Assembly (NCBI GenBank): GCA_002412625.1
Contig: DHVK01000012.1
Span: 30,145 to 94,144, forward strand
Reading direction: 5' to 3'
Source: Cloacimonetes bacterium UBA5210
GTDB lineage: Bacteria > Cloacimonadota > Cloacimonadia > Cloacimonadales > Cloacimonadaceae
Length of the DNA stretch: 64,000 nt
The number at the start of each line of letters is the position of its first letter. The stretch's first letter is position 1. The notes beneath the pieces are model-generated. The model did no database searches and had not been told where the DNA came from. It saw nothing but the letters and a program-made list of their open reading frames with translations. Both the position numbers and the translations under genes were made by a program. Below, one piece after another: positions 39,328 through 60,323 of this stretch.

Positions 39328-40974
39328 CTAAAACTCTATCTCCCCTTGAAAGACTTTATTTTTCTTTATCTCCGGTTTCCTAAACGGGTCTATCGCAGTA
39401 TTAGGCAGATGCACAGGTATCGGATTGGCAAGCAGTTGTTCTGCGGTAACTATCTGGATGCGGGGTATCGAAAATGCTTGACTCATCTGAATTAGACGAT
39501 ATTCAAACTTACCTGCTTTCGCTGCTTCTTCGATCATGCCACGAGTTGGCTCTACCAGTGTTATCAGTATCCCAAAATCTGCATTCTGGCTTTCCACAGT
39601 TCCCTTGAGGTCTCGCACCATCGCGGGATTGATACTCTTTCCACCTTTTACGGAGATAATCCCTTTCCCCACACCGTTTTTCTTGCTGGAATCTATGAAG
39701 TTAATCACCCCATCCACCCCTTTATCACCTGTTTTTACCGTAGGTATGGCGTTTAGCTGGCTAACAGCCCACACTTCAAACTGGAAGGGATCTTTTTCTG
39801 CCAGTTTTGAGGCAGAGAGAAGGTCTTTAGGGGTGCCTTTCACCACAAAGTCCTTTCCTTCCATTATCTTATTCTTTTCGAAGCGTTTCTTGATTACGTC
39901 TATGGATAGATAGGTAATATCCACACCGATCCAATTTCGGTTTAGCCTTTCTGCCACAGCTACAGCCGTTCCACAACCGCAGAAGGGATCAAGGATTACG
40001 TCCCCTTCGTTGCTACCGGCTTTAATGATGCGCTCCAACAAGGCTTCAGGTTTCTGCGTAGGATAGCCTAAACGTTCCTCTTTAGGTGCTATTTTTATAT
40101 CTGTCCAAATATCTGGGCATTTATTACCTTCCATCTCATCTAAGTATCTTATATAGCGAGGGTTTCCACTCTTTGTGTGTAGTATTCGACCCTCTTTGTC
40201 TAATTGTTCCATCTTCTCAATATTATAGACAAAACACCTTGAGGCTGGTGGCGTATAACCCTTCCAAGAATAAACTTGCCCTTTGGATGCTCTTGACATT
40301 GGGGCAGTTAAATCTGTTGCTTGATATCTTCTTCCATTTTCATCTACGTGAGAATAGAAAGCATCTGTATATTCTTTATCATAATCCATAAATTGCTGAT
40401 TCCATTTCCAGTCATTGGTTTTGGAATAAAATAGAATTACGTCATGTATCCAACCAAATTTCTTCTGCACATTGCCTTTGGAATCTGTTCTTTTCCATAT
40501 AATTTCGTTCCTAAAGTTACTTGTCCCAAATACTGCATCCATCAGTAACTTAAGATAGTGGCTGGCAATGGGATCACAATGCAGATAGATACTCCCTGTA
40601 GGCTTCAATACCCGTTTCATTTCCATCAATCGGGGAGCCATCATGCACAGGTATGCCATCAGCGGACAAGCATCCAGATAGCTGCGCATTGCCTTCATCA
40701 AATCTATCAATTTCTGCGGAGGATGCGTTTTCGTTAAGGTGCCCATGATCAGGCTATTATATTCGTCTTCGGCTTTTTCGCCCCAAAGCCAAGTATCTTC
40801 AAATGTTTCTATCTGTGAAGTAGCGCCTTTCACGCCGTCTTTTTCGGGCTTGAAGATGATATTATAATTCCTTCCGCTTTGAAAGGGCGGATCCAGATAG
40901 ATCAAATCTACAGACTCATCTTTAATGTGCTCTTTCATGATGTCCAGATTATCACCATAGTACAATGTATTCAT
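39328..40974 (-). CDS. N6-adenine/N4-cytosine DNA methyltransferase (beta-class) fused to a C-terminal Mrr-like restriction-endonuclease domain
   Basis: Motif IV DPPFQSG lies near the N-terminus and AdoMet motif I VILDPFCGCGT lies later (beta-class order). The C-terminal ~150 aa carry FQFEVWAV...GDKGVDGVINF...GIISVKGGKS (D...x-K PD-(D/E)xK-like, Mrr_cat-like). Confidence 0.8.
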   Translation of the reverse strand: MNTLYYGDNLDIMKEHIKDESVDLIYLDPPFQSGRNYNIIFKPEKDGVKGATSQIETFEDTWLWGEKAEDEYNSLIMGTLTKTHPPQKLIDLMKAMRSYLDACPLMAYLCMMAPRLMEMKRVLKPTGSIYLHCDPIASHYLKLLMDAVFGTSNFRNEIIWKRTDSKGNVQKKFGWIHDVILFYSKTNDWKWNQQFMDYDKEYTDAFYSHVDENGRRYQATDLTAPMSRASKGQVYSWKGYTPPASRCFVYNIEKMEQLDKEGRILHTKSGNPRYIRYLDEMEGNKCPDIWTDIKIAPKEERLGYPTQKPEALLERIIKAGSNEGDVILDPFCGCGTAVAVAERLNRNWIGVDITYLSIDVIKKRFEKNKIMEGKDFVVKGTPKDLLSASKLAEKDPFQFEVWAVSQLNAIPTVKTGDKGVDGVINFIDSSKKNGVGKGIISVKGGKSINPAMVRDLKGTVESQNADFGILITLVEPTRGMIEEAAKAGKFEYRLIQMSQAFSIPRIQIVTAEQLLANPIPVHLPNTAIDPFRKPEIKKNKVFQGEIEF

Positions 40975-41151: not shown

Positions 41152-42498
41152 TCATCGCTCTGTAAACGCATCCAAATATAAGTTCAGACCTGTGCATAAA
41201 CCCAAATGGAGGTTTAGCAGATGAAACTGCTTTCCGGAAGGGGTTGACAATGTTTCCCAATTAGTTTGCCCATCATAAATTCTTACTGCCAGATCATGAT
41301 CAGCTTCCTCCATGAACAGCAATAAGGATTTTAAAGTTCCGGACTTACCTGCCTTCACTTCGATGGGTATCATGCGCTTCCCCCGGATAATCACAAAATC
41401 TACTTCCGCACTCGAATTGCGGGCACTTCGGTTCCAAGTTCCCAGTTCGAAACCGTCTCCGGCAGCCTTTGACAGCAACTGTTGCCCCACCAGATGCTCC
41501 ATGGCCACACCTTTGTAGATGGAGTTCAGCCCTTGATTAGTGAAGTATTGCTCGTGGATATTAGCCTGGAGATTCACGAATCCAGTATCAAGAAAGAGCA
41601 GTTTGGGTCGTTTGCTCAGCTTTGGCAAAGAGGGTAACACCGCATTGCCATAGGGATGCAGCAGTTGCAACAATGAAGCCTGCTCCAACAAAGTGAAGGC
41701 ATTTTTTACGGTTTGAGACCTGAAATCGGATTCTCCAAAATGCTCGAAACTGATCAATTTGCAAGCCTGTGTAGGCGCAGTGTTGATCAAATGCCCTAAA
41801 ACATTGGCCTGATCTCCGGATGCGGCGTATTTTACGGCATCATCGCGATAGGTTTGCAGGAGGTTGCCCAAAATCCTGCGAACATCCATGATATTGCCGG
41901 TTGCCAGCCAAACCCTGATCACTTCCGGCATGCCGCCCACCAAGGCATATTCCAGAAATTTCTCTCTTAAAACAGGATATGCCCAATCCGGGAAAGGGAT
42001 TGTGCCCAATAGCTCCAGCACTTGATCTTGTCCCGCTGCTTGCAAATACTCTTCGAAGTTGCAGGGATGCATCCAAAGATACTCAACCCTACCCACCGGA
42101 ATCTCCAACCGATTACGCTTCAGATATACATCCAGCAAAGAACCTGCAGCAATCACATATAGTTCGGGCATCTTTTCGTAAAAGTAACGGAGGCTAAGCA
42201 GCGCTTGCGGCGAATGCTGAATCTCATCGATAAACAGCAAAATCCTTTTCCCCCGGGCATGAACACCCTTTTTAAGCAGGATGAGATTAAACAGCGAGTC
42301 AACATCAGTGCCGTCAATGAAGATATCACGCTCTGCAGGCACTTCCAGATTGAGCTCGATGAAGCAGTCGAATTCGCTTCCGAACATCCGAACTGCGGTA
42401 GTCTTACCTACTTGTCGGGCTCCACGCAAAACTAATGACTTCCGATAGGGACTTTTTGACCACTCTCTCAGCTGATTAATTATCTGACGATTAAACAT
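41152..42498 (-). CDS. AAA-family ATPase with DUF4143-type C-terminal domain
   Basis: Walker A RGARQVGKTT and Walker B LLFIDEIQ. The C-terminal EVDFVIIRGKRMIPIEVKAGKSG is a PD-(D/E)xK-like motif typical of AAA_14/DUF4143 proteins. Confidence 0.8.
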   Translation of the reverse strand: MFNRQIINQLREWSKSPYRKSLVLRGARQVGKTTAVRMFGSEFDCFIELNLEVPAERDIFIDGTDVDSLFNLILLKKGVHARGKRILLFIDEIQHSPQALLSLRYFYEKMPELYVIAAGSLLDVYLKRNRLEIPVGRVEYLWMHPCNFEEYLQAAGQDQVLELLGTIPFPDWAYPVLREKFLEYALVGGMPEVIRVWLATGNIMDVRRILGNLLQTYRDDAVKYAASGDQANVLGHLINTAPTQACKLISFEHFGESDFRSQTVKNAFTLLEQASLLQLLHPYGNAVLPSLPKLSKRPKLLFLDTGFVNLQANIHEQYFTNQGLNSIYKGVAMEHLVGQQLLSKAAGDGFELGTWNRSARNSSAEVDFVIIRGKRMIPIEVKAGKSGTLKSLLLFMEEADHDLAVRIYDGQTNWETLSTPSGKQFHLLNLHLGLCTGLNLYLDAFTER

Positions 42499-44263: not shown

Positions 44264-44716
44264 TTAGTTTGATGTTACAGTGTCGTTATCGTCTTCAATG
44301 ACAATGATTCCGAAGTCGATATAGCCAGGTGATCCGATGTATCTGGATTCGAGTGAGAACTTGACCTTCTCAGGATACTCATGCAGATCATCCGGACACT
44401 TGGGGAACTGAGAGACTGTGACCGGGAACTGGCTCTTGACTTCGTTATAGGCGGTGTATTCGAGAAAGAGTCTGCCAGTTGAGGTAATGAAGCTCATCAG
44501 GGTATAATACTCATCAGGATTGAGGGTTGCCTGCAGATCAAAGGAATCCTCCCTGTATTCATCTCTTTGATGCAGGATGGAAGGATCAAAGGCATTCTTC
44601 TTCTCGATGCGGTACTTACGACGGGGAGAGTATTCTACCTGCCCGGTGGTACAGTTAAAGTAGTATGTTCCTTGAGTGCTGAGTCGGATCAGTCTCCAGC
44701 CCTTTATAGCAGCCAT
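44264..44716 (-). CDS. Phage hypothetical tail-associated protein
   Basis: It overlaps the upstream gene by 13 nt within the tail block. No motif. Confidence 0.4.
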   Translation of the reverse strand: MAAIKGWRLIRLSTQGTYYFNCTTGQVEYSPRRKYRIEKKNAFDPSILHQRDEYREDSFDLQATLNPDEYYTLMSFITSTGRLFLEYTAYNEVKSQFPVTVSQFPKCPDDLHEYPEKVKFSLESRYIGSPGYIDFGIIVIEDDNDTVTSN

Positions 44717-46191
44717 GCTTTCACCTTGTATTCATCATTTATGTAGTCTCTCTCCAGTTCGGTAATGGCATAAACCTTATTCTGGATGCGTATCTTGGAC
44801 TGGAGTGAGAGATTGTATTTGGCAAGCTGATCGATAGTCGTTTCTACGCTCCACTTAGAGTCATAGAAGTCGATCAGGTAGTCTTTGATCAGCCCTTGCA
44901 GTTGATTGGTATCGCCACCCAGGACATCGATGGTTTTGATATCGGGTTTCTCTTGGTTGCCACGCTTGACGATAATGGATACCACATCCTCATCGGCTAT
45001 GTTGTTTATGACAGTGGCATAAGCATCCTTGTTCTTGAGGATGATGTTACCATTGGCAGTGGTGAAGATAGTGGCATTATAGAGCATCAGCATCGCTTGC
45101 AGGGCTTTGAGGTTATCGGTCTGCTCCTCTTGTAAGGTCTCATAAGCCTCTCCGGGCTGTAGCTTAGCCGGGAAGAGATTGCCATGAAAGTGAGCTTCGA
45201 TCCAGTGACCAACGTACTGGCTGCTACCATAGCTTCTGCCATCTAACAAGCCCGTACTGCTGAGTCCCGTGAGGAGGGTAGTACTGGAGATGCCATTATC
45301 ACCAAAGAAGCTGAGGAACTCGTTATAGGCATTATCCAGAGAGGGCAGGTCTTCCACCCAGTCGGTCTTTTCATCATATTCGGATACTACCGGACAGATG
45401 CTGTTATAGAACTTGAAGACTCGACCTCGGTATCTTCCCTGATAGCGTGTGGTGGCAGGACTGGGATAGGTAGCCTGGATCACCTTCTTATAGGCAAAGA
45501 CAAAGGTGATCTTGTTTGCTGCCGTATCCACGATGTAACCCCAAAAGGGTCCCGGCCATCCACTGCTGTGATGAGAGTAGGTCCAGCCTCCGGGGGGATT
45601 GGGAAACTGGATCAGGTCATCGAAATCGATGTGAGCGATGGTTAATGAGTCGCCCGAACCGATATTCATGGTTGGAGGGGTGAACTGATTAGTATAAGGA
45701 ATAGAGATTGGGATAGTCTGTTCAATATCCTGCAAGAAGTAACCGAGTATCCAGATTGGCAGATATCCTGCAGTTAGGGAATAGTAGTGAGTGAGATCGG
45801 AATAGACGGACAAGAGCTTGATCTTATCGTAACAGGTGAACTTGAGGATGCCGGAGCTTACATCGAAGGACAACTGGGAAGTATCGATGATGCCTGTAAA
45901 AAACAGAAAATTATCCCGATAGACCCTAACTTCAAAGTGGGATATATACCGCTCATATTCATTGGTTCCGGAGAGGATGTTATCCTGTATCCAGACAGTC
46001 GGGAAACACTCGAAAGTGAGTCGCTTGGGTTCTCTACTATAGTTGGATACCGCTTGCAGCTTATCGGCTGAGACACTTAGAGTGATGATAGCTCTACTAG
46101 TTGCAGTATCCACCAGGCTATGTTTGATCTGGTTATAGTCGGTTGCATCCGTATTGCCTTGCACGAAGTCTATCTTAAATAGATTCGGCAT
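44704..46191 (-). CDS. Phage distal-tail/baseplate-type structural protein (hypothetical)
   Basis: 495 aa, immediately downstream of the tape measure gene with adjacent stop and start. Call is by position. Confidence 0.45.
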   Translation of the reverse strand: MPNLFKIDFVQGNTDATDYNQIKHSLVDTATSRAIITLSVSADKLQAVSNYSREPKRLTFECFPTVWIQDNILSGTNEYERYISHFEVRVYRDNFLFFTGIIDTSQLSFDVSSGILKFTCYDKIKLLSVYSDLTHYYSLTAGYLPIWILGYFLQDIEQTIPISIPYTNQFTPPTMNIGSGDSLTIAHIDFDDLIQFPNPPGGWTYSHHSSGWPGPFWGYIVDTAANKITFVFAYKKVIQATYPSPATTRYQGRYRGRVFKFYNSICPVVSEYDEKTDWVEDLPSLDNAYNEFLSFFGDNGISSTTLLTGLSSTGLLDGRSYGSSQYVGHWIEAHFHGNLFPAKLQPGEAYETLQEEQTDNLKALQAMLMLYNATIFTTANGNIILKNKDAYATVINNIADEDVVSIIVKRGNQEKPDIKTIDVLGGDTNQLQGLIKDYLIDFYDSKWSVETTIDQLAKYNLSLQSKIRIQNKVYAITELERDYINDEYKVKAWLL

Positions 46192-49020
46192 TTATACCTC
46201 ACTCCTGATCATCTTGCCGGTATCAGCTATCTCGGATACCCTAACCGGGTCATTACTCAAGGGATCAACATTTATCTCGAAGTTGGGCTTGTTATCGGCT
46301 ATGCTCTGCCGGAGAGAACTGAACTCCTCCCGCACCACGGAGACGATGGTGTTCATGATCGCAGTCATACTGCCTCCACCGGAAACAGTGCCACCAGAGC
46401 CATAATATGAGCCCAGGTTGGCAGGCATGGGCACTGAAGGGATAGGCAGACCTGCAAATGCAAGCTTCACCTTTTCGATAGGTGCGAAGTTGAGGAAGTC
46501 AAAGAGGTTCCTACCCAGTGCCTTGACTCTGTCCTTGGCAGTGATGTACTCGTTACCTTCAGCTTCAATCAGGATGCCACCCTCACTATGCGCTTTACCG
46601 ACTAATAGTCCTCCGCTGGCTGCCTTGGGTGGCTCAGTGGATTGGATCACTGCGATATTGGCAAGCCCGGCTCCTATTGCTGCCGCAGCAGCGGTGACTG
46701 CCAGTCCGGGTCCGACCACAGGAATACCAACCATAGACTTATAGGCTGCTGTGGCAGAGGCATAGGTGTCTATCATCGCCTGTCCGATAGCCAGGGTCTT
46801 CCACATGGCAAAGCCTTTCTTACCGAAGATCTCTGAAGTCTTGGCAAGGTCACGCATGATCTGCTGGGCACCTTGCAGGTTCCGCATCTCATAGTCGTTC
46901 CGAATCCGAGCCTTGGCAGCTTCGCTTTGGGCTGTGATCTGCTGTTCGGTAAATCCAGCAGCCAGAAGCTTCTCTCTGCGCTTGGCATAGTACTGTTCTA
47001 TGGCTCTCAGCTCCGCATCCCAGGTTCTATCTGATAGTTCCAAGCTCCGCTGAGTGAACTCGAAGCGGGTATCCAGGAGTTCCTGCTGTTGCCGTCTCTC
47101 TTCTTCAAGCACCTTGCGTCTGGCTTCGGTTTCAGCTTCAATCTGAGCAGATCTGGCTTCGCTGGCTTCTGTCTCCACCCTGACCGACTCATCGGCATAG
47201 TGATCCCTGATAGACTGCAGAAGAGTCTCAGATGCTCCTAAGGACTGAGCCTTGGCAAGCTCTGCATCCCGCTGGATTTCGAGTTCCTTCTGTTTTCTAA
47301 GAACTGCATCGTCAATAGATAGCACATCATACTTCTGCTGTAACTGCCTAAGCTGTTCAAGCTGTCTCTGTCTCTCATCTATGAGCCTCTGAGCGTTATC
47401 AGTACCAGATGAGGATGATTCACCAGCATTACCGGAGTCAAAGCTCAGGTCCGGAGCTTCAAGCATCGCCTGTCTATAGGCTGCACCTATCTGCTGCAGA
47501 TCGTACTTGGCCGCTTGCAGTTGTCCCGTCAAAGCACCGAACTGGTTCAAGCGGCTTTCTAACTTGTTCCACTCTCCATCATTCCCGAAGTATAATGCAG
47601 GATTGAAGCCCATGGCATTGCGGTCACTGGTCAGGAAATCCCAATCCACTGAGTTCATCAATTGCTGTTTGCGGGCTCGGACCCTATCTACCTCAGCCTG
47701 TTGGGAGTCGATCTCAATCTGCAGCTCGGCTACCCTCCTGATCTGAGCATTATACCTCTCTCCATAAACTTCAGCTATCTGTTTCTGCACAAGTGCCTCT
47801 GAAGCATTCCGCAAGGCCGTTGCCAGGTTATTGTAAGATGATGTTTCGAGATCGATGTTGCCTATGTACTCAGAGTAGTTCTCATTGAGTGACCGGATGA
47901 TGTTCTTCATCTCGGTCTTATCTGATACCGTAAGTGAACTGGCAGAGCGTAACTCCAGGAGCCTGGAAGCCAGTAAAGAGAACTTCTCGGCTTCCACCGA
48001 GACCTGTTTCTGAGCTTCTTTGATCTCATCGTTCATAGAACGCTGTGCTACAGTTACCGTATCAGTCTTTACCGAGGCTGCTGCCAGCCCTAAGCCCAAG
48101 GCAGACAATGCACCCACAGCAATACCGATAATCCCTGCCACCGGGTTTATAGCTACCTGCAGAGCATGATAGGCAGCGGTCAAGGCAGTGATAGTGGTTG
48201 TAATAGTTCCGATCAAAGGAATGGCTACTACTATACCGGCAACGAAGCCTTGCATGACCGGAGATAAGCTCTGATAGGCATCCATCAGCCAGCGAAGACC
48301 CTGAAGTAACGGATTGATCAGAACTGTCAGCATATCGCCCACTGTCTCCTGGATGTCTCCCCAGGCATTGGCATTCTGCAATCTCAAATCAGCCAGAGCG
48401 ATAGCTGTGCCACCATAGTCCTCTCCTAACTTCTCAACCAGGTAAGACACCCCTTCAGTCTTGAGCCGGGTATCATCAAGCTCGATGCCATAGCGTCCCA
48501 GCATCTCGGTATGACCATTCAATGCCCGACCCATAAGATCAAATGCACTTTCCACGCTCATCCCGGTGGCTTTGTTGGCTTCGGTAAAGTCCAGCAGAAG
48601 TGGCACAAGCTGTTGTATCTCATCCTTATTCAGCTTGAAGGTCTGCGAGAGTTTGGACATCAAAGCCAGCAGTTGATCATCCTCGAAGTTAGTTAATGAC
48701 TGCATGGCAGAGGCAAACTCACCCATCTCAGCCGCAGCTTCTCCAAAGGCTATCTTTGCCAAAGTAACCGCTTGTCTCTGAGCCAGTGATGCATCCAATA
48801 AACCATTCATGGAACGCACCAGACCACCGACTACCTGGATCACTCCATCGACTGCGATCTTCACATCACGAATGGTAGCCAGAGCCTGTTCTGCAGATAT
48901 CTTGACTGCAGCAGGTTTCTCCACCACAGACTGGGTGGACTCCGCTTCCTGCTTGACTTCGGCAAGCTTCACATTGGCATCGTCTGTGACGAGGATGAGT
49001 TTGAAAGTTAGGTCAGGCAT
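46192..49020 (-). CDS. Phage tail tape measure protein
   Basis: 942 aa. Long Ala/Gln/Glu-rich coiled coils, internal hydrophobic Gly/Ala-rich TM-like segments (GFVAGIVVAIPLIG..., VGPGLAVTAAAAAIGAGLA) and a typical position. AGAGG RBS upstream. Confidence 0.88.
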   Translation of the reverse strand: MPDLTFKLILVTDDANVKLAEVKQEAESTQSVVEKPAAVKISAEQALATIRDVKIAVDGVIQVVGGLVRSMNGLLDASLAQRQAVTLAKIAFGEAAAEMGEFASAMQSLTNFEDDQLLALMSKLSQTFKLNKDEIQQLVPLLLDFTEANKATGMSVESAFDLMGRALNGHTEMLGRYGIELDDTRLKTEGVSYLVEKLGEDYGGTAIALADLRLQNANAWGDIQETVGDMLTVLINPLLQGLRWLMDAYQSLSPVMQGFVAGIVVAIPLIGTITTTITALTAAYHALQVAINPVAGIIGIAVGALSALGLGLAAASVKTDTVTVAQRSMNDEIKEAQKQVSVEAEKFSLLASRLLELRSASSLTVSDKTEMKNIIRSLNENYSEYIGNIDLETSSYNNLATALRNASEALVQKQIAEVYGERYNAQIRRVAELQIEIDSQQAEVDRVRARKQQLMNSVDWDFLTSDRNAMGFNPALYFGNDGEWNKLESRLNQFGALTGQLQAAKYDLQQIGAAYRQAMLEAPDLSFDSGNAGESSSSGTDNAQRLIDERQRQLEQLRQLQQKYDVLSIDDAVLRKQKELEIQRDAELAKAQSLGASETLLQSIRDHYADESVRVETEASEARSAQIEAETEARRKVLEEERRQQQELLDTRFEFTQRSLELSDRTWDAELRAIEQYYAKRREKLLAAGFTEQQITAQSEAAKARIRNDYEMRNLQGAQQIMRDLAKTSEIFGKKGFAMWKTLAIGQAMIDTYASATAAYKSMVGIPVVGPGLAVTAAAAAIGAGLANIAVIQSTEPPKAASGGLLVGKAHSEGGILIEAEGNEYITAKDRVKALGRNLFDFLNFAPIEKVKLAFAGLPIPSVPMPANLGSYYGSGGTVSGGGSMTAIMNTIVSVVREEFSSLRQSIADNKPNFEINVDPLSNDPVRVSEIADTGKMIRSEV

Positions 49021-49112
49021 AGTTAAGTTGATACCTCTTGCTAAGTGTTACAAATCATAGAAAATTATTGACATTTCCAGCTCCATCATTTTGCTTGGTA
49101 CTGGAGCATATT

Positions 49113-49937
49113 ATGAAAAAGAAAATGAAAAGAGGATATGTAGCCATGTTAGATGTCCTCGGATTTAAAGAGTATCTGAGCAAAAGACAAAACTTTGATT
49201 TTTTCTCTTTGTGGAAACAGCTTAAAAAAGAGCTCAACGATCAAAAATATTGCATAGAAAAAGAGATTCAAGGATTTGAAGATTATTGGCATCTTGATGT
49301 GTTATGCCTTTCGGACACATTGGTGTTATGCCTTTCCTGCACAGATGAAAACGAGGAAAATAGAACTATTTTATTAGCGCATATAGTGATCATTTTGGAC
49401 TCCTTTATTGACAGGTACTTTAAACAAGGTATTTATTTTAGAGGGGCTATTAGTTATGGCGACTTCATATGCGATACGAAACAAAATATCGCTATGGGAA
49501 ACGCTATAGATGAAGCATCCGAATGGCACGACAGCACAGATTGGATTGGCATCATTCTTGCTCCTAGTGCTAAATATGCTTACGAAAAAATCATACTTGA
49601 AATACCCATTAATCATCCTTGGAATGGTGAGCTACAAAAACTAGTGAATTATGAAGTTCCTTTTAAATTCAACACATCTTACAAAACACGGGCTTTTATT
49701 TGGTTCAACATACCCGATGGTATTTATATGAGAGGGCTGAAGTTACACGGTTTTTACAGGTTACTATCAAAATCCACTTACTCAAAAACTGTAATAGGCA
49801 AGTATGCTAACACAATCAAATTCATCGAAACAATTTTATCTGTTGATCGGGAAGAGTTCCTGTTAGAGGACGCTAAGAGAAGGAATGATAAGACATCAAA
49901 CTTACTTATAATTCCTAATGAGCAACTCGATTTGTAA
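49113..49937 (+). CDS. Class III nucleotidyl-cyclase/GGDEF-fold-like protein with unknown C-terminal domain (AT-rich moron)
   Basis: YVAMLDVLGFKEY (compare VTVLFADIVGFT), LCLSDTLVLCL (compare iGDavma), IYFRGAISYGDFI and MGNAIDEASEWHD (compare RIGIHTGPV / GDAVNLAARLE). GGAG lies 6 nt before the ATG at 49113. GC is ~27% in a spot count, and the gene runs opposite to the flanking phage genes. Confidence 0.55.
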   Translation: MKKKMKRGYVAMLDVLGFKEYLSKRQNFDFFSLWKQLKKELNDQKYCIEKEIQGFEDYWHLDVLCLSDTLVLCLSCTDENEENRTILLAHIVIILDSFIDRYFKQGIYFRGAISYGDFICDTKQNIAMGNAIDEASEWHDSTDWIGIILAPSAKYAYEKIILEIPINHPWNGELQKLVNYEVPFKFNTSYKTRAFIWFNIPDGIYMRGLKLHGFYRLLSKSTYSKTVIGKYANTIKFIETILSVDREEFLLEDAKRRNDKTSNLLIIPNEQLDL

Positions 49938-50681
49938 CTGAAAACTGCCTGAAACAGTGTACTGCGCTTCGACTTCATCAATGGCGAAGCCTTGGTAGAG
50001 TGTGCGGATGTAAGGGTCATTGTTGTAGGATAGCAGGAACTTCCCTTTGATGTTTTTCAGTGCGGATGCCAGCTCTGCATGCTTGGTAAATGCGTCTGCG
50101 TCTTCTCTGTCGTATAGATGCTCCTTGGTGTAATAGGGTGGGTCGAGGTAGAAGAAGGTGTTGGGCGTATCAAAACGGGCAATGATCTTCTCAAAGTCTT
50201 GCTTTTCGATAATCACCTGCTTGAGCCGTTCCGAGGCAGCTTTTACCTTCTCCAGGTTTCGCAGTGGCATGTATTTATAGCCCTGCATGATGCAGAAGTT
50301 CTTGCTGCGTGAGCCGTAGCTGCAGGATAACTGGAAGTAGAAACGGATAGCCCGTTCAAGTTCTGTTTTGGGCTCATGTTGGGTGAACGTGTCGAACATC
50401 TCCCTGGATACCAAGTACTGGTTCAACTCGGTAACAAACGCTTCAGGATGCTGCTTAACGTACTTCCAGAAGTTCACCAGATCACCATTGATGTCGTTAT
50501 AGACTTCAGTGTATCTGCTCTTCTTGGACAACTGCCAGTCTTCCTTGTTGGCTGATTTCCCGAACAGTATCCAGGCAGCACCGCCAAAGACTTCACAGTA
50601 GATGTCGTGCTTGGGGATGAGAGGCAGTATCTTCTTTCTCAGGAGACGCTTGCCACCTACCCATGAGATGATACTATTCAC
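49902..50681 (-). CDS. Dam-family (D12 class) N6-adenine DNA methyltransferase, copy 2
   Basis: WVGGKRLL, EVFGGAAW (motif I) and YLDPPY (motif IV). 4-nt overlap with the upstream paralog. Confidence 0.88.
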   Translation of the reverse strand: MNSIISWVGGKRLLRKKILPLIPKHDIYCEVFGGAAWILFGKSANKEDWQLSKKSRYTEVYNDINGDLVNFWKYVKQHPEAFVTELNQYLVSREMFDTFTQHEPKTELERAIRFYFQLSCSYGSRSKNFCIMQGYKYMPLRNLEKVKAASERLKQVIIEKQDFEKIIARFDTPNTFFYLDPPYYTKEHLYDREDADAFTKHAELASALKNIKGKFLLSYNNDPYIRTLYQGFAIDEVEAQYTVSGSFQLQIELLIRNYK

Positions 50682-51496
50682 GATATCCCCCTGATCTCTT
50701 TGGTGGTTTTAGCTTTGGTCTTGGCTGTATCCTGATCGGTATCCACGAGGTCGAAATTGGCGATGATCACTTCATTGAACTCGGACTTGCCTTCCTTACG
50801 GTTGATACCCTTGGTTCTGGTGACGTGCCTGATATCATAGCCTTTGTATAGCTTCAGTACTTCCGGGTTGTCATCATAGGAGAGGATAAACCTTCCCTTG
50901 ATGTTCTTCAAGATGTCTCTCAGGGTTTCATGGCTGAACTGCTTGGAGTTTTCGTAAGTGTAACCAAGCATGTAAGGCGGATCGCAATAAAAGAAGTTGC
51001 TCTTGGTGTCGTACTTCTCTATCACTTTCTCATAAGAGAGGTTCTCGATGATGACCATGTCCAGTCTTCTGTGCAGTTCCTTGATGCGTTCCAGACGGTT
51101 ATACATACTGGACGTGCCACGCTTCTGAGATGTACCAAAGCTGTCACCTTTGCTTCCGAATGATCTGGTGATGAGGAACATGAACCGGGCAGCTCTCTGT
51201 ATCTCGGTTAAGCCTTCCTGCTTGAGGATATCGCCAAAGAGCTTGCGACTGGCAACCAGAAAGTCCAGTTCTTTGATCAGCTCATCCGGGTGATACTTCA
51301 CTTGTAGGAAGAGATTGACCAGGCGATAGTCGAGATCATTATAAACTTCCAGATCACCCCACTTGTCTTTGAAGAGCAGCATCCAGGCAGCACCACCGAA
51401 GGGTTCAATGTAGCCCTGAATGTCCTTGGGAACGTATTGTGAGATAGTTTTGCGGAGGAGGCGTTTACCTCCGATCCAGCCGATCAGTGCATCCAT
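50678..51496 (-). CDS. Dam-family (D12 class) N6-adenine DNA methyltransferase, copy 1
   Basis: WIGGKRLL, EPFGGAAW (motif I) and YCDPPY (motif IV). It has a Lys/Thr-rich C-terminal tail. Confidence 0.88.
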   Translation of the reverse strand: MDALIGWIGGKRLLRKTISQYVPKDIQGYIEPFGGAAWMLLFKDKWGDLEVYNDLDYRLVNLFLQVKYHPDELIKELDFLVASRKLFGDILKQEGLTEIQRAARFMFLITRSFGSKGDSFGTSQKRGTSSMYNRLERIKELHRRLDMVIIENLSYEKVIEKYDTKSNFFYCDPPYMLGYTYENSKQFSHETLRDILKNIKGRFILSYDDNPEVLKLYKGYDIRHVTRTKGINRKEGKSEFNEVIIANFDLVDTDQDTAKTKAKTTKEIRGIS

Positions 51497-53117: not shown

Positions 53118-54860
53118 TTAGGTGGTGAGCTTGAACACTTTCACGAAGCCGGAGATGTAGGTGATCCCGGGACGGATACGGATGTACCAGTGGTACTTCC
53201 AGTCTGCGCCATGGTGCTCAACCTTGAGTTCGGCATCGGTACGGTAACCGATGATGATGAACTTGGGCAGACCGCCGATGATGTAGTCATCAGCCATGAG
53301 ACGTGGCTTTACAGGAATCCCCGCAAAGGATACGTTACCGCCTTCGAGCAGCAGTCTGTCTCCGGCTCCGGTCTCACGTTTGGCGAGTTCGGCTCTGATA
53401 CGGATCAGGTCTTTCTGACTGACATAGAACTTGAAGTTCTCCTGCTCTTCTAACATCTCATCAGAGAAAGCTAGGAGTGCAGCTTCGAAGCGTTTCGCCC
53501 AGTCATTGTAGGTGGTCTTGGAGAGGTTGGTGACATCGGTGGCGGTGGTAGCGAGCTTGATCACTCCATCCAGTCCCTTCAGCTTGGCAGTGGCAGATAC
53601 TCTGTCACCTTTGAAGAGTAGCAGACGGATAGCCTTCTCAGTCTTCTTGGCGATATGGTTCTCTACATAGGCTCCGAAGGCATCCTCACCGTACTTGTCC
53701 TTATAGAACTCCACCACATCCCTGCCTAAGGTAAACTCAGCATTGAGTATCCCAGTGGGGACAGAGAGATCGGCAGTGGCTACGGTCTGAGCTGTAAGAG
53801 CACCATCGAGACTATTCTTGAATACCAGGTCATCAATCAGTCCGGCATCGATCTTCTCATCTTTGAGGAGTGGGATAATCGAGATATCGGAAAGGGTATC
53901 ACCGGGCTGGCTGCCAATCACTTCATCGATAAACAGAGATGTGGTATTAGCATTGAGGATGTTCATGGCTTTACCGGAGTCTACATCGGAGATGCCTTTG
54001 TAGATCTCCCGGTGGCTTGCTTTGACCACGATCTTGTTACCATCGATCATGACTTCTTTATCCGCATTCATCTGATTGCCGTCCGGCTCACCTGAAATGC
54101 TCTTGGAGATAGCTCTGGTCATGGTGACTGAGAGGTCTTTCAGGCTCTTCTCGATGCTCTTGATGGCTTCCGAGACGATTACAGTGCCACTGCTCTTCTC
54201 AAGCTCGGTGATCCGCTCAGTGATGGCAGTGATACCTTTCTGCATCTCACTGTTGTTGTTCAGTTCCGCTACCTTACGCAGGCTGCCCAGTTCGTTCTTG
54301 ATCTCGGCTAAGCTGGCTTCGGTGCCACCGTAGTCATCGGCCCGTCCATAGATGGATACCCCATTGAACTCGCCCTTCTCGACCTTCTGCCAGAGTTCAC
54401 TCTGCAGGTTCTCGCACTTGAGGACTTGCACCCAAGAGCCGACTTTAGCATCGGGGAAATGCTCCCGGTCACTGGTCTTGAGTAGGTAGTTCTCCACTAC
54501 GGTAAACTCCGGTACGGGCTGCATATTGTGGTTTACATCGCATTTGCCGACTAAGCCGTGCTTGGCGAAGTGATCACAGGACTTCTGAATCTCTTCCCGG
54601 GTGTAATAGTCCCCCTGGGAGTCATGGATGTTAGGCTCCATCAGAGTGACGTAAAGCCGTCCTTGAGTGCCTGATGTCTCACTCTTGAACTTGGTGGAGT
54701 TGATCTTGTGTTCAAAGCTCCGTCCGGAAGCATTCTTGACCACAAAGCCTTTCTGGTTAGCCGGGTTCATCTCGTCAAAGAGGAGCGAGACCAGCTCGAC
54801 TTCCACATTGCGCAGTTCGCCCTTTTTGACGATCCTGCTCTTAGTTCCGAAGATATTCAT
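53118..54860 (-). CDS. Fusion of XkdF-like prohead protease/scaffold region and HK97-fold major capsid protein
   Basis: The N-terminal ~180 aa match the XkdF-type pattern (DSQGDYYTREEIQKSCDHF...DVNHN...VVENY...GSWVQVLK...ELWQKVEKGEFNGVSIYG). A coiled-coil linker follows, then a ~300-aa C-terminal region of capsid size and position. Confidence 0.6.
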   Translation of the reverse strand: MNIFGTKSRIVKKGELRNVEVELVSLLFDEMNPANQKGFVVKNASGRSFEHKINSTKFKSETSGTQGRLYVTLMEPNIHDSQGDYYTREEIQKSCDHFAKHGLVGKCDVNHNMQPVPEFTVVENYLLKTSDREHFPDAKVGSWVQVLKCENLQSELWQKVEKGEFNGVSIYGRADDYGGTEASLAEIKNELGSLRKVAELNNNSEMQKGITAITERITELEKSSGTVIVSEAIKSIEKSLKDLSVTMTRAISKSISGEPDGNQMNADKEVMIDGNKIVVKASHREIYKGISDVDSGKAMNILNANTTSLFIDEVIGSQPGDTLSDISIIPLLKDEKIDAGLIDDLVFKNSLDGALTAQTVATADLSVPTGILNAEFTLGRDVVEFYKDKYGEDAFGAYVENHIAKKTEKAIRLLLFKGDRVSATAKLKGLDGVIKLATTATDVTNLSKTTYNDWAKRFEAALLAFSDEMLEEQENFKFYVSQKDLIRIRAELAKRETGAGDRLLLEGGNVSFAGIPVKPRLMADDYIIGGLPKFIIIGYRTDAELKVEHHGADWKYHWYIRIRPGITYISGFVKVFKLTT

Positions 54861-59168: not shown

Positions 59169-60323
59169 ATGCTACAAGTTAGTAATATTGCAAAAAGTAT
59201 CGATGTATATTCGTTCTTCTCGGGAATAGGGCTTTTAGACCTAGGTTTCGAGAATGCAGGATTCAATATAGAGTTTGTTAGTGATATAAAGAGAGCATTC
59301 TTACATGGATATCAATATGCAAGAAAGTGTATGAAACTTTCAGCTCCCATGTATGGGTATTGGAACGCTAGCATCGACGAAGCTTTAGATAACAGATTGG
59401 AAAACTCTTTGAAAAATGCGCTATGTGATTCAAAGTCCAGAAATCAAAGGGTCTTTTTTGTTGGGGGTCCCCCATGTCCAGATTTCTCTGTCGGTGGAAA
59501 AAACCACGGTAAGAATGGAGATAATGGCAAGTTATCAAAATCATATGTAGATATAATCCTAGAATACAAGCCCGATGGTTTTTTGTTTGAGAATGTCAAA
59601 GGCTTGTGGCGCACCAAAAGACACCGTGAATTCTACGAAGAGATTAAGGCAATCCTGATTAAGAATGGGTATAGAGTCACAGAAAGCTTAGTTAATGCAA
59701 TTGAGTATGGAGTCCCGCAGGACAGGGAACGAATTATCCTAATCGGGTTTCATGAATCTTTTCTGAAGTTGAGTAAGCATCATGAGCAAAATGGATATTT
59801 AACAGATTTTCCGTGGGATAAGTACAAGGAGCATAATCTATCTGAAATAAGTGGATTGCCCTGGCCCCAAACAACTGAATTCCATTCAAATTCAAAGAGT
59901 TCATGCCCAGCTGGTATCAATGTTGAACTGGCAGTCGAATACTGGTTTACGAAAAACAATGTTTTGAAGCATCCAAACACTCATCATTGCTTCGTGCCAA
60001 GAGCTGGACTAGCAAAGTTTAAAACGATTGCAGAAGGTGACGTTTCAAAAAAGTCTTATAAACGGCTTCATCGGTGGAGATATTCTCCAACTGCTGCATA
60101 TGGCAATAATGAAGTGCACCTACATCCCTATTTTGAAAGAAGAATATCAGTGGCTGAGGCACTATCTATTCAATCTTTGCCTGCAGAGTTCAATTTACCC
60201 AATGACATGTCATTATCCGATATGTTTAAATCTATCGGGAATGGGGTTCCATACCTGTTGGCTTTAGGAATAGCTAAAACAATCTTGTCTTACTTAGGAG
60301 AAAATGATGTCGGTGACTGTTAG
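59169..60323 (+). CDS. dcm: DNA (cytosine-5)-methyltransferase
   Basis: Motif I FFSGIGLLDLGF, motif IV GGPPCPDFS, motif VI FLFENVKGL, motif VIII QDRERIILIGF and C-terminal GNGVPYLL. Confidence 0.95.
   Translation: MLQVSNIAKSIDVYSFFSGIGLLDLGFENAGFNIEFVSDIKRAFLHGYQYARKCMKLSAPMYGYWNASIDEALDNRLENSLKNALCDSKSRNQRVFFVGGPPCPDFSVGGKNHGKNGDNGKLSKSYVDIILEYKPDGFLFENVKGLWRTKRHREFYEEIKAILIKNGYRVTESLVNAIEYGVPQDRERIILIGFHESFLKLSKHHEQNGYLTDFPWDKYKEHNLSEISGLPWPQTTEFHSNSKSSCPAGINVELAVEYWFTKNNVLKHPNTHHCFVPRAGLAKFKTIAEGDVSKKSYKRLHRWRYSPTAAYGNNEVHLHPYFERRISVAEALSIQSLPAEFNLPNDMSLSDMFKSIGNGVPYLLALGIAKTILSYLGENDVGDC

What the first reader, a model, noticed from the sequence alone, without database searches (positions are those of the whole stretch)
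49038..49937. AT-rich opposite-strand moron encoding a nucleotidyl-cyclase-fold-like protein between the methylases and the tape measure gene
The 274-aa product lines up by eye with the conserved beta1-alpha1 and catalytic elements of class III cyclase/GGDEF-type palm domains:
- YVAMLDVLGFKEY (first metal Asp)
- LCLSDTLVLCL (second Asp)
- IYFRGAISYGDFI
- MGNAIDEASEWHD

A ~110-aa C-terminal region follows with no recognisable motif. The gene is ~27% GC in a spot count, against ~50% for the flanking phage genes. It has its own GGAG RBS and a TTGACA hexamer at 49068-49073, and it is transcribed against the late operon. It fills exactly the gap between the Dam-like gene and the tape measure RBS.

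Its 3' end overlaps the convergent methylase ORF by 36 bp. The last 12 codons of that methylase are therefore encoded in moron-type DNA, which suggests the insertion remodelled the methylase C-terminus.

Cyclase-based anti-phage systems (Pycsar, CBASS, type III CRISPR signalling) normally pair a cyclase with an effector, and no effector is adjacent here. The protein may be a single-chain system, a prophage-encoded superinfection-exclusion factor, or a counter-defence or signalling enzyme.
Basis: partly seen in the sequence, partly recalled or inferred. Interest (0 to 1): 0.7.

Follow-up and report, generated by a model that had tools for sequence, protein, structure and literature searches.

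The report
Prophage moron encoding cyclase-fold enzyme
A prophage carries, in a swap-in slot between its DNA-methylase and tail tape-measure genes, an AT-rich gene for a very divergent adenylyl/guanylyl-cyclase-fold enzyme; the gene belongs to a large, undescribed family that in bacteria and archaea often lies beside restriction and abortive-infection genes, so it is a credible but untested candidate for a new phage-conflict enzyme.

Summary
Window 49113-49937 (+) encodes a real 274-aa protein, 35% GC (not 27%) against 48-51% in its flanks, antisense to the late operon.

- **Insertion:** related phages have the methylase stop abutting the tape-measure start (empty site), or about 30 unrelated AT-rich cargos in the same slot.
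- **Fold:** the AlphaFold2 model (pLDDT 89) matches only class III cyclase catalytic domains in its top 50 PDB hits (best E 5.8e-6).
- **Catalytic residues:** the two metal-binding Asp residues are kept in 244/246 and 257/257 homologues. The helix-4 Asn/Arg pair of canonical cyclases is not kept.
- **Databases:** no Pfam, NCBIfam or PADLOC model detects the protein.
- **Family:** it has ≥1,400 clusters at 50% identity. Many cellular members sit in a two-gene operon with, or are fused to, a PF21648 protein of unknown function. Their commonest neighbours are R-M, Abi and ATPase genes.
- **Phage clade:** it is solo and hypervariable, 34-44% identical where the neighbouring methylase is 83-91%.

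The claimed remodelling of the methylase C-terminus is refuted. Function is inferred: an active NTP-using enzyme in phage-host conflict. It is not a Pycsar, CBASS or GGDEF member.

The parts
49113..49937 (+). Gene for the 274-aa divergent class III cyclase-fold protein (stop included)
   Evidence: ORF and translation. Homologues align from the N-terminal MKKKMKRGYV. AF2 model has pLDDT 88.9 and pTM 0.86. Foldseek top 50 hits are all class III cyclase domains.
49128..49697 (+). Cyclase-homology-like core, residues 6-195 (β1-α1-α2-β2-β3-α3-β4-β5-α4-β6-α5-β7-β8)
   Evidence: Secondary-structure order in the model. Foldseek alignments of 180-225 columns to 172-200-aa cyclase domains, TM about 0.5-0.58 normalised to the target. 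hhalign register over 134-158 columns.
49152..49154 (+). Codon of Asp14 (end of β1), putative first metal-binding Asp
   Evidence: GAT at 49152-49154. D in 244/246 family sequences. Aligned to the Asp of the cyclase 'faDi~gFt' motif.
49314..49316 (+). Codon of Asp68 (β2-β3 hairpin turn), putative second metal-binding Asp
   Evidence: GAC at 49314-49316. D in 257/257 sequences. Aligned to the cyclase 'GD' Asp. The hairpin lies between strands 59-66 and 69-76.
49722..49898 (+). C-terminal three-helix extension (residues 204-262) carrying the near-invariant K230-Y-x-N233-T motif
   Evidence: Helices 204-219, 228-242 and 246-262. K230 in 227/230 and N233 in 214/230 sequences.
49103..49106 (+). GGAG ribosome-binding site, 6 nt before the ATG
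   Evidence: Read from the sequence. GGAG or GAGG lies at the same place in syntenic homologues.
49028..49033 (+). TTGATA, positional equivalent of the TTGAC(A) found at the cargo boundary of this hotspot
   Evidence: It starts 8 nt after the tape-measure start codon (49020). A TTGAC starts 8-13 nt after that codon in 37 of 45 occupied slots, whatever the cargo. It is absent from empty sites. Promoter function is inferred.
49068..49073 (+).
   Evidence: Read from the sequence. No matching -10 by the sigma-70 scan. Function is uncertain.
49021..49901 (.). 881-bp AT-rich inserted segment (the moron cassette) between the tape-measure start codon and the methylase stop codon
   Evidence: GC 34-38% here against 47-51% in the flanks. 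Relatives L097, L140, L141 and L144 have only 2-24 bp here. 57 other relatives carry 221-2,073 bp of varied cargo.
49902..49937 (.). 36-bp convergent overlap of the moron's 3' end with the 3' end of the first D12 methylase gene
   Evidence: ORF coordinates. The methylase C-terminus is conserved in relatives. The moron tail, residues 264-274, has pLDDT<50 and is not conserved.
49902..50681 (-). Flank: Dam-like (D12) DNA methyltransferase, 259 aa
   Evidence: phrog_56 E 1.3e-68. PF02086 on the syntenic genes.
46192..49020 (-). Flank: tail tape-measure protein, 942 aa
   Evidence: phrog_3336, phrog_1506 and phrog_2854 tape-measure families.

Best explanation
The gene is the cargo of a moron cassette. 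The cassette sits in a hypervariable slot of an uncultivated siphovirus-like prophage, between the second of two Dam-like methylase genes and the tape-measure gene, and is read against the late operon.

Its product is a very divergent member of the class III nucleotidyl-cyclase fold. It has a cyclase-homology-like core (res 6-195) and a conserved three-helix C-terminal cap.

Inferred mechanism:
- Like all enzymes of this fold, it acts as a head-to-tail dimer.
- Asp14 and Asp68 hold two divalent metals.
- Arg110 and Lys185, and perhaps Lys230 and Asn233 from the cap, hold the triphosphate of an NTP.
- The NTP is converted to a nucleotide product with release of pyrophosphate.
- The helix-4 Asn/Arg pair that stabilises the cyclisation transition state is replaced (Asp133; no Arg). 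The product therefore need not be a canonical 3',5'-cNMP.

Inferred role:
- The protein belongs to a large family with no hit in Pfam, NCBIfam or PADLOC. Its cellular members are translationally coupled or fused to a PF21648 (Vch_cass3-like) protein with a His-rich N-domain, and often lie among R-M, Abi and ATPase genes.
- The phage clade has shed that partner.
- I therefore read the phage protein as a lysogen-expressed conflict enzyme. The most likely roles are prophage-encoded immunity or exclusion, acting through a nucleotide product or through NTP consumption.

Shown: gene, insertion, fold, residue conservation and family context. Inferred: catalysis, dimerisation, expression in the lysogen and biological role.
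For: **Insertion and moron status**
- Empty sites exist with the methylase stop abutting or overlapping the tape-measure ATG (L097 TAATG; L140, L141 and L144 with 20-24 bp).
- 57 of 61 related phages have this slot occupied. About 30 unrelated ORF types occur, with slot GC 29-43% against 44-53% in the flanks. Nine carry the cyclase-like gene.
- A positionally conserved TTGAC(A) is present in 37/45 occupied slots.

**Fold**
- pLDDT is 88.9.
- There are 42 PDB hits at E<=1e-3, and the top 50 are all class III AC/GC domains. Best is 1wc5_A at E 5.8e-6, TM 0.58.
- The best BFVD hit is also a guanylate cyclase domain, but it is weak at E 0.05.

**Register of catalytic motifs**
- hhalign of a 230-sequence family profile against six PDB cyclase domains gives P 0.0017.
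- It aligns LDvLG~K with faDi~gFt, fSDT with ~GD, RGAIS~G with RiGi~tG, GpAIdEA with G~~VnlA~R, and P~K with ~KG.

**Conservation over 258 unique sequences**
- D14 244/246; D68 257/257; R110 255/258.
- G116 257/258; G129 255/255.
- K185 216/237; K230 227/230.

**Family context**
- A partner gene lies at position -1 on the same strand, with start and stop overlapping or a few bp apart, in 38 of 92 loci (31 distinct partner sequences) across many phyla.
- Partner-enzyme fusions exist: L026 (445 aa), P0096 and P0128.
- Hand-picked neighbours include HsdR x3, HsdS, an Eco57I-type methylase, an SMC/AAA_15 ATPase, a Cas12-like protein, and SNF2 and UvrD helicases.
- The commonest Pfam families among 143 neighbours of 47 loci are AAA_21, AbiEii, ResIII, Methylase_S and AAA_15.

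**Arms-race signature**
- The syntenic homologues are 34-44% identical. The adjacent methylases are 76-94% identical and the tape-measure proteins 52-77%.

**Lysogeny**
- The window is a bacterial chromosome (PolA, histidine kinases) joined to the phage module.
- Related contigs carry an S24 repressor-type gene.
Against: - No enzymatic or phenotypic data exist.
- At sequence level the cyclase link is marginal. The target has no Pfam PF00211 hit, and only 1 of 37 relatives hits it, at E 0.0084. The first hhalign, with a shallow profile, aligned only β1.
- The canonical helix-4 Asn/Arg pair is not conserved, so cyclase chemistry is uncertain.
- No effector or partner is encoded in the 64-kb window or in the phage relatives.
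- The slot is not a dedicated defence hotspot. Other cargos include a CrcB fluoride channel, ankyrin repeats and DUF3775.
- The neighbour survey of cellular loci has no background control and used crude ORF calling. It also recovers capsule-synthesis genes.
- The sigma-70 scan calls no promoter or terminator for the window gene.
Confidence: 0.5

Rival explanations
1. Counter-defence. The phage carries a partner-less copy of the enzymatic subunit of a host two-gene system. The copy subverts that system, either by forming mixed, misregulated dimers with the host enzyme (cyclase-fold enzymes build their active sites across the dimer interface) or by titrating the host PF21648 partner. Alternatively, it makes a nucleotide that blocks a host immune receptor.
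For: - The phage clade is the sister group of the partner-associated cellular clade and always lacks the partner.
- Fusions show that enzyme and partner interact physically.
- MAGs of the presumed host phylum (Cloacimonadota) carry the full two-gene system (L029).
- The gene lies next to two Dam-like methylases, a classic anti-restriction load.
Against: - A pure decoy would not need its catalytic residues, yet D14, D68, R110 and K185 are all kept in the phage clade.
- Orientation against the late operon is typical of lysogen-expressed genes, not of early anti-defence genes.
- One phage-clade member (L015) lies beside a type IIG R-M-like gene in a MAG contig, a defence-like context.
Confidence: 0.17
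2. Lysogenic conversion by second messenger. The enzyme makes an ordinary cyclic nucleotide that rewires host physiology (metabolism, motility, biofilm, or the lysis-lysogeny decision) for the benefit of the lysogen. No immune role is involved.
For: - It has the class III cyclase fold with a conserved metal site.
- The same slot carries host-fitness cargo such as CrcB in other phages.
- No effector is adjacent.
Against: - The family's cellular members are coupled to a dedicated partner, and their commonest neighbours are R-M and Abi genes rather than housekeeping signalling genes.
- Extreme divergence between otherwise near-identical phages is unusual for a housekeeping-type regulator.
- The Asn/Arg pair needed for efficient cyclisation is missing.
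Confidence: 0.13
3. Toxin of a toxin-antitoxin-like addiction or abortive-infection module. In cells the upstream PF21648 protein would be the antitoxin. In the phage the toxin would be controlled in some other way, for example by antisense late transcription.
For: - The gene order, with the partner upstream and stop and start overlapping, resembles type II and type IV TA operons.
- Neighbours include other TA pairs (PIN-MazE, ParE-RelB) and AbiEii genes.
- The late operon must transcribe through the gene in antisense to reach the tape-measure gene (read from the sequence).
Against: - A solo toxin kept in at least ten related phage genomes without any antitoxin is hard to maintain.
- The AbiEi-like hit of the partner covers only 22 residues and is not borne out by the model, which shows a helical N-domain and a Vch_cass3-like C-domain.
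Confidence: 0.12
4. Catalytically dead scaffold. The cyclase-like fold is retained only as a binding module, and the conserved acidic and basic residues serve ligand or partner binding.
For: - The helix-4 Asn/Arg pair is lost.
- No profile-level membership in PF00211.
Against: Near-absolute conservation of both metal Asp residues, the β4 Arg and the β7-β8 Lys across 258 sequences and across bacteria and archaea is the usual signature of an active site.
Confidence: 0.06

Closest known systems
Class III nucleotidyl cyclase catalytic domains (Pfam PF00211; e.g. Spirulina CyaC 1WC5, P. aeruginosa CyaB 3R5G, M. tuberculosis Rv1900c 1YBT, soluble guanylate cyclase)
   Same: - Same fold and strand/helix order. 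The top 50 Foldseek PDB hits are exclusively this family.
- The Asp on β1, the Asp in the β2-β3 turn, the Arg at the start of β4 and the Lys in the β7-β8 hairpin align in register and are conserved.
   Different: - Not detected by the PF00211 HMM. Sequence identity to PDB cyclases is 9-14%.
- The helix-4 transition-state Asn is Asp, and the Arg is not conserved.
- No Lys or Glu at the base-specifying β2 position (read from alignment A1).
- It carries an extra conserved three-helix C-terminal cap with a K-Y-x-N-T motif.
- It is a single stand-alone domain with no sensor domain.
[quoted passage not shown]
   Same: A class III cyclase-fold enzyme in a small operon, often beside other defence genes. 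By analogy, it may work through a nucleotide product.
   Different: - No PADLOC PycC hit for the target or for four relatives.
- The partner is neither a TIR nor a transmembrane protein. It is a soluble PF21648/His-rich protein of unknown function, encoded upstream and sometimes fused.
- The phage copy has no partner at all.
GGDEF diguanylate cyclases and minimal Cas10-type polymerase/cyclase (mCpol, Panoptes)
   Same: Related palm-type nucleotidyltransferase core, with the second metal-binding acid in the β2-β3 hairpin. mCpol systems show that a small stand-alone palm enzyme can be an immune signal generator (PMC12657230, from its abstract).
   Different: - The hairpin motif is (L/I)SDT, not GG[DE]EF or GGDD.
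- No Pfam GGDEF hit.
- Neither family appears among the top 50 Foldseek PDB hits.
Prophage-encoded nucleotide-synthetase defences with a regulator, e.g. mycobacteriophage Phrann gp29 ((p)ppGpp-synthetase-like) with gp30, and toxic small alarmone synthetase TA pairs (recalled from general knowledge, not tested here)
   Same: The concept is the same: a small nucleotide-converting enzyme carried by a prophage or a TA-like pair, held in check by an adjacent protein and used against superinfecting phage.
   Different: - The enzyme fold is unrelated (RelA/SpoT against class III cyclase).
- No regulator lies next to the window gene.
Phage morons and accessory-gene hotspots in late operons (lambda and HK97 morons, P2/P4 hotspots)
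   Same: - Different base composition, opposite orientation and presence/absence polymorphism at a fixed intergenic site.
- Many alternative cargos, with a promoter-like element travelling with the cargo.
   Different: The position (methylase/tape-measure junction) and this cargo have not, as far as I could find, been described. Promoter and terminator are not demonstrated.

Membership tests
Class III nucleotidyl cyclase (PF00211) | Cyclase-homology-domain fold (β1-α1-α2-β2-β3-α3-β4-β5-α4-β6-α5-β7-β8) | tested here: met
   AF2 model with pLDDT 88.9 has this order of elements. Foldseek gives 42 PDB hits at E<=1e-3, and the top 50 are all class III AC/GC domains.
Class III nucleotidyl cyclase (PF00211) | Score above the Pfam gathering threshold for PF00211 | tested here: not met
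   No hit for the target even at E<=10. One of 37 relatives hits at E 0.0084. PDB sequence searches give no cyclase.
Class III nucleotidyl cyclase (PF00211) | Two metal-binding Asp residues, on β1 and in the β2-β3 turn | tested here: met
   D14 and D68 align to the cyclase Asp residues. They are kept in 244/246 and 257/257 sequences. The three-dimensional geometry was not checked.
Class III nucleotidyl cyclase (PF00211) | Transition-state Asn and Arg on helix α4 (N-x3-R) | tested here: not met
   The aligned positions are Asp133 (D in 177/253, N in 13) and a variable residue (E in the window, mostly A elsewhere).
Class III nucleotidyl cyclase (PF00211) | Phosphate-binding Arg (β4) and Lys (β7-β8) | tested here: met
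   R110 in 255/258 and K185 in 216/237 sequences. Both are aligned in register by hhalign; K185 aligns only at the relaxed alignment (MAC) threshold, -mact 0.05.
Class III nucleotidyl cyclase (PF00211) | Dimerisation and cyclic-nucleotide synthesis | not testable with these tools
   No multimer prediction or biochemistry was available.
Pycsar | PycC-type cyclase recognised by the PADLOC models | tested here: not met
   Zero PADLOC hits for the target at E<=10 and for P0035, P0015, P0020 and P0007 at E<=1.
Pycsar | Adjacent effector with a TIR or transmembrane domain | tested here: not met
   The window neighbours are the tape-measure and methylase genes. In cellular relatives the conserved neighbour is the PF21648 protein. 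Its AF2 model has a helical N-domain and a Vch_cass3-like α+β C-domain, and neither Pfam nor Foldseek reports a TIR or transmembrane domain for it.
GGDEF diguanylate cyclase (PF00990) | GG[DE]EF hairpin motif and a PF00990 hit | tested here: not met
   The hairpin reads LSDT or ISDT. No PF00990 hit among 37 members.
CBASS CD-NTase | cGAS/DncV-like Pol-β nucleotidyltransferase fold and the PADLOC CBASS models | tested here: not met
   The fold is the class III cyclase palm. No PADLOC hit.
Phage moron | Base composition different from the flanks and orientation opposite to the operon | tested here: met
   35.0% GC against 47.6-51.1%. The gene is on the + strand inside a - strand late operon.
Phage moron | Presence/absence polymorphism at a fixed site in related phages | tested here: met
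   Of 61 relatives with both flanks, 4 have empty sites, 9 carry the same family and 48 carry other cargo.
Phage moron | Own promoter and terminator | tested here: inconclusive
   No sigma-70 promoter or terminator is called in the window. However, a TTGAC(A) lies at a fixed distance from the tape-measure start in 37/45 occupied slots, and the window has TTGATA there.
New two-gene module (PF21648 protein + cyclase-fold enzyme) | Conserved partner immediately upstream or fused | tested here: not met
   The partner HMM finds nothing at E<=10 in the six-frame translation of the window or of 11 of the viral-contig loci, 7 of them phage-clade. The window gene belongs to the solo phage clade.

The most novel reading that the evidence does not exclude
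The window gene and its relatives are the enzymatic core of a previously unrecognised, widespread immune module of bacteria and archaea. The module pairs a divergent class III cyclase-fold synthase with a His-rich PF21648 protein.

The phage clade would be a single-gene derivative. It either gives the lysogen immunity to superinfection or hijacks the host module. Because the canonical cyclisation residues are replaced, its nucleotide product would be non-canonical.
Probability: 0.3. Interest if true: 0.8.

Novelty: new variant of a known kind. Interest (0 to 1): 0.6.

Why it matters
- **Blind spot in the catalogues.** If the enzyme is active, this clade of at least 1,400 clusters at 50% identity would extend nucleotide-converting conflict enzymes to a class III-cyclase-fold family. 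No Pfam, NCBIfam or PADLOC model detects that family.
- **Altered chemistry.** The active site keeps the metals but has lost the Asn/Arg pair. This hints at a product other than a standard cNMP.
- **A new partner type.** The partner protein is known only as an 'integron cassette protein' of unknown function.
- **A natural dissection.** The phage clade is a solo enzyme without the partner, so it is a convenient single-gene entry point for experiments.
- **A defined hotspot.** The methylase/tape-measure junction of this phage lineage is a cleanly bounded moron hotspot, with empty sites and about 30 cargo types. It could be mined for further accessory genes.

Tried and rejected
- **Direct family look-ups gave nothing useful.** Pfam found only MATH at E 0.12. 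NCBIfam and PADLOC found nothing. PHROGs found phrog_23933 (unknown function) at E 5.7e-4.
- **Sequence searches of the PDB gave chance hits only.** With the protein the hit was DNA ligase at E 0.26. With the 37-sequence profile it was ClpB at E 0.26.
- **The first hhalign was too shallow.** The 37-sequence profile against six cyclase domains aligned only β1. A 230-sequence profile was needed for the full register.
- **No viral structural relatives.** Foldseek against viral models (BFVD) gave nothing at E<=1e-3.
- **No useful GenBank phage relatives.** There is one distant unannotated hit for the protein. The capsid/protease finds no close relative of the phage.
- **No partner in the window.** The partner HMM had no hit at E<=10 in the window or in the phage loci.
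- **Methylase remodelling rejected**.
- **The partner is not a wHTH AbiEi-like antitoxin.** The PADLOC hit covers 22 residues only. Neither the model nor Foldseek shows such a domain.
- **The slot is not a dedicated defence hotspot.** Its cargos are heterogeneous and mostly unknown.
- **Exact-sequence look-up failed.** P0001 is not on record.
- **Promoter and terminator scans gave nothing above shuffle expectation**.
- **Literature.** I found no paper on PF21648/Vch_cass3 beyond the 2013 structural-genomics report (PMC3548836), and none describing this family.
Full report
**1. The observation**

The ORF list gives 49038-49937 (+) as a 299-aa TTG-initiated frame. The biologically supported start is ATG 49113, preceded by GGAG at 49103-49106. 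Homologues align from this N-terminus.

All four quoted motifs are present. The gene lies between the tape-measure start (49020, - strand) and the stop of a Dam-like methylase (49902, - strand), whose ORF it overlaps by 36 bp. PHROG hits confirm the tape-measure protein and two tandem D12 methyltransferases.

GC is 35.0%, not ~27%. The tape-measure gene is 51.1%, the methylases 47.6-48.3% and the window 48.7%. TTGACA at 49068-49073 is real. However, the sigma-70 scan finds no promoter upstream of the gene and no terminator.

The rest of the window shows a bacterial chromosome (PolA, histidine kinases, PreP peptidase) joined to a phage structural module from about 43.6 kb. The element is therefore a prophage.

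**2. It is an insertion in a hotspot**

I fetched 68 viral contigs that encode the same methylase at 81-96% identity. Both flanks could be located in 61 of them:
- In 4, the methylase stop abuts the tape-measure start. L097 has an overlapping TAATG; L140, L141 and L144 have 20-24 bp.
- In 9, the slot holds 800-900 bp with a homologue of the window gene.
- In 48, it holds 221-2,073 bp of other sequence. This falls into about 30 unrelated ORF types, mostly on the strand opposite to the late operon.

Slot GC is 29-43% against 44-53% in the flanks. Identifiable alternative cargos are a CrcB channel, an ankyrin-repeat protein, DUF3775 and a weak HNH; the rest are unknown.

Read in the direction of the cargo, a TTGAC(A) starts 8-13 nt after the tape-measure start codon in 37 of 45 non-redundant occupied slots, whatever the cargo. 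Empty sites lack it.

The 'moron' reading is thus well supported. Promoter function remains an inference.

**3. The methylase was not remodelled**

The methylase is 258-260 aa in all relatives. Its C-terminus (…YTVSGxFQxxxELLIRNY) is conserved whether or not the cargo overlaps it. PHROG 56 matches residues 1-258 of 259.

The overlap arises because the moron's own tail runs into the methylase 3' end. That tail (residues 264-274) has pLDDT<50 and is not conserved in the family.

**4. Fold**

With a 37-sequence alignment, AlphaFold2 gives pLDDT 88.9 and pTM 0.86. The element order is that of a cyclase-homology domain (residues 6-195), followed by three helices (204-262).

Foldseek against the PDB returns 42 hits at E<=1e-3. 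The top 50 are all class III adenylyl or guanylyl cyclase catalytic domains: CyaC 1wc5 (E 5.8e-6, TM 0.58 on the target), soluble GC, soluble AC, AC9, CyaB and Rv1900c. The best hit in the viral model library is also a guanylate-cyclase domain, but it is not significant.

**5. Sequence-level link and catalytic residues**

No Pfam, NCBIfam or PADLOC model detects the protein. One of 37 relatives touches PF00211 at E 0.0084.

To test the register I retrieved six real cyclase-domain sequences from PDB alignments (alignment A2). A 230-sequence family profile aligns to them with P 0.0017 over 134-158 columns. The equivalences are:

| Family motif | Cyclase motif | Residue in the window protein |
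|---|---|---|
| LDvLG~K | faDi~gFt | Asp14, first metal Asp |
| fSDT | ~GD | Asp68, second metal Asp |
| RGAIS~G | RiGi~tG | Arg110 |
| GpAIdEA | G~~VnlA~R | Asp133 in place of Asn |
| P~K | ~KG | Lys185 |

Conservation over 258 unique family sequences:

| Residue | Kept in |
|---|---|
| D14 | 244/246 |
| D68 | 257/257 |
| R110 | 255/258 |
| K185 | 216/237 |
| K230 | 227/230 |
| N233 | 214/230 |

By contrast, the helix-4 Asn is Asp (177/253) and the Arg position is variable. The metal and triphosphate site is therefore kept, but the residues that stabilise the cyclisation transition state in canonical cyclases are not. The residue roles come from established knowledge of mammalian AC C1/C2. 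The mapping here rests on alignment and secondary-structure register, not on superposition.

**6. The family**

An exhaustive HMMER search finds 1,427 clusters at 50% identity with E<=1e-3, and 211 with E<=1e-10. Nearly all are stand-alone proteins of 220-290 aa. Members occur in many bacterial phyla and in archaea such as Methanosarcina and a Promethearchaeota MAG.

*Partner gene.* I called ORFs in 92 fetched loci. In 38 of them (31 distinct partner sequences) a conserved gene of about 220 aa lies immediately upstream on the same strand, usually with overlapping stop and start.
- It carries PF21648 ('Integron cassette protein', M1E1E6-like) in its C-terminal half.
- It matches PDB 3fy6 (Vch_cass3), by sequence at E 1.2e-10 and by fold at E 2.5e-4.
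- Vch_cass3 is a dimeric α+β protein of novel fold and unknown function (PMC3548836).
- The N-terminal half is a helical domain with invariant histidines H56, H68, H69 and H90; H88 is kept in at least 90%.

*Fusions.* Partner and enzyme are fused in L026 (445 aa, Methanosarcina, between HsdS and HsdR), in P0096 and in P0128. This argues for a physical complex.

*Neighbours.* Hand-picked neighbours include three HsdR, an HsdS, an Eco57I-type methylase, an SMC/AAA_15 ATPase, a Cas12-like protein, and SNF2 and UvrD helicases. In a systematic sample of 143 neighbours from 47 loci, the commonest Pfam families are AAA_21, AbiEii, ResIII, Methylase_S, AAA_15 and SMC_N. Capsule-synthesis genes also appear, as they do, where TA pairs sit alongside. 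This fits variable or defence-island DNA, but I had no background control.

**7. The phage clade**

A neighbour-joining tree places the window protein with the other phage-borne copies, plus one MAG copy that lies beside a type IIG R-M-like gene. This clade is sister to the partner-associated clade.

The partner HMM finds nothing in the six-frame translation of the window or of the phage loci.

Across six syntenic phages the protein is 34-44% identical to the window copy. The first methylase is 83-91% identical, the second 76-94%, the tape-measure protein 52-77% and the next tail gene 59-78%. The low GC (34-40%) persists in every copy. Such allele turnover at a fixed site is typical of genes under conflict-driven selection. 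Cassette replacement would give the same pattern.

**8. Mechanism**

*Shown:* a real, inserted, opposite-strand gene; a class III cyclase fold; a conserved two-Asp/Arg/Lys site; a family coupled to a PF21648 protein and often next to R-M and Abi genes; a solo, hypervariable phage clade.

*Inferred:*
- The protein dimerises head to tail, binds two metals through Asp14 and Asp68, and converts an NTP with release of pyrophosphate.
- The product may not be a standard 3',5'-cNMP.
- The gene is expressed from the prophage. Late antisense read-through towards the tape-measure gene would silence it during lytic growth.
- It serves in phage-host or phage-phage conflict, most likely as lysogen immunity or exclusion.

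Rivals are counter-defence by mimicry of a host subunit, second-messenger lysogenic conversion, a TA-type toxin, and a dead scaffold. They are weighed in the Rival explanations section.

**9. Comparison and novelty**

The protein works like a class III cyclase at the level of fold and metal site. It fails the PF00211 profile test and the Asn/Arg test, so I do not file it as an ordinary member.
- It is not Pycsar: no PycC model hit and no TIR or TM effector.
- It is not GGDEF or mCpol: no GG[DE]EF or GGDD hairpin, and neither family is in the top 50 fold hits.
- It is not CBASS: the fold is different.

I found no paper describing the family or its partner beyond the 2013 cassette structure. I rate it a new variant of a known kind, namely cyclase-fold enzymes in conflict systems, and of moderate-to-high interest. 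The fold call and the hotspot are solid. The function is an untested but directly testable hypothesis.

Noticed in passing
L096-L163 (slot next to the tape-measure start); window 49028-49033: A TTGAC(A) starts 8-13 nt after the tape-measure start codon in 37 of 45 occupied slots, whatever the cargo ORF. Empty sites lack it. The window has TTGATA in that register. It looks like a -35 element that travels with every cassette, or a hotspot boundary signal.
   Followed up: partly
window 49902-51496, 59169-60323, 39328-40974: The region carries a heavy methylase load. Two tandem Dam-like D12 methylase genes with a 4-bp overlap sit inside the late operon. A C5 cytosine methylase lies at 59169-60323. 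An N6_N4 methylase fused to an Mrr-type endonuclease domain lies just outside the structural module.
   Followed up: partly
L001 4306-4956 (also L002-L006, L080, L081): Related phages carry a second opposite-strand moron between the 495-aa tail gene and the tape-measure gene. It is 216 aa, with weak HEPN-type hits (RiboL-PSP E 0.004; PADLOC RTasHEPN E 0.0017). The window lacks it: 44704-46191 abuts 46192.
   Followed up: partly
L026 4305-5642: A Methanosarcina MAG encodes a 445-aa natural fusion of the PF21648 partner (res 2-218) and the cyclase-fold enzyme (res 224-441). It sits between the HsdS and HsdR genes of a type I R-M system. P0096 and P0128 are further fusions.
   Followed up: partly
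partner proteins, e.g. L039 4300-4971 (alignments A3, A4): The N-terminal helical domain of the partner has an invariant or near-invariant His cluster (A-H-x-L-H, P-K-H-H-x-Y-M-x-x-N-R, F-Y-x-H-x-H-P). This suggests a metal site or catalytic centre. No known fold match was found for this half.
   Followed up: partly
L116 6777-7322 and L149 6830-7315: In two related phages the same slot holds a CrcB-like fluoride channel gene (PF02537, E 5.8e-30) on the late-operon strand. This is a host-fitness cargo rather than a defence gene.
   Followed up: partly
L042 6005-8998: A Cas12-like protein (RuvC_1 E 1.8e-46 plus REC1) lies directly downstream of a partner/enzyme pair in a Phascolarctobacterium MAG.
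   Followed up: no
window 53118-54860: A 580-aa ORF combines a head-maturation protease region (res 14-232) with a virion structural/capsid-like region (res 288-560). It appears to be a protease-capsid fusion. The syntenic gene in relatives carries PF14550 (Peptidase_S78_2).
   Followed up: no
window 41152-42498: An AAA_14/DUF4143 ATPase gene lies next to the methylase-Mrr fusion, in the stretch between the chromosomal genes and the start of the phage structural module (about 43.6 kb). It could be a small defence islet or part of the prophage accessory region.
   Followed up: no
MT835554.1 8982-9401 (hit H1): This is the only GenBank phage record with any similarity to the protein. It is an unannotated human-gut 'Bacteriophage sp.' contig, 25% identical over residues 9-158 (E 2e-3).
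   Followed up: no
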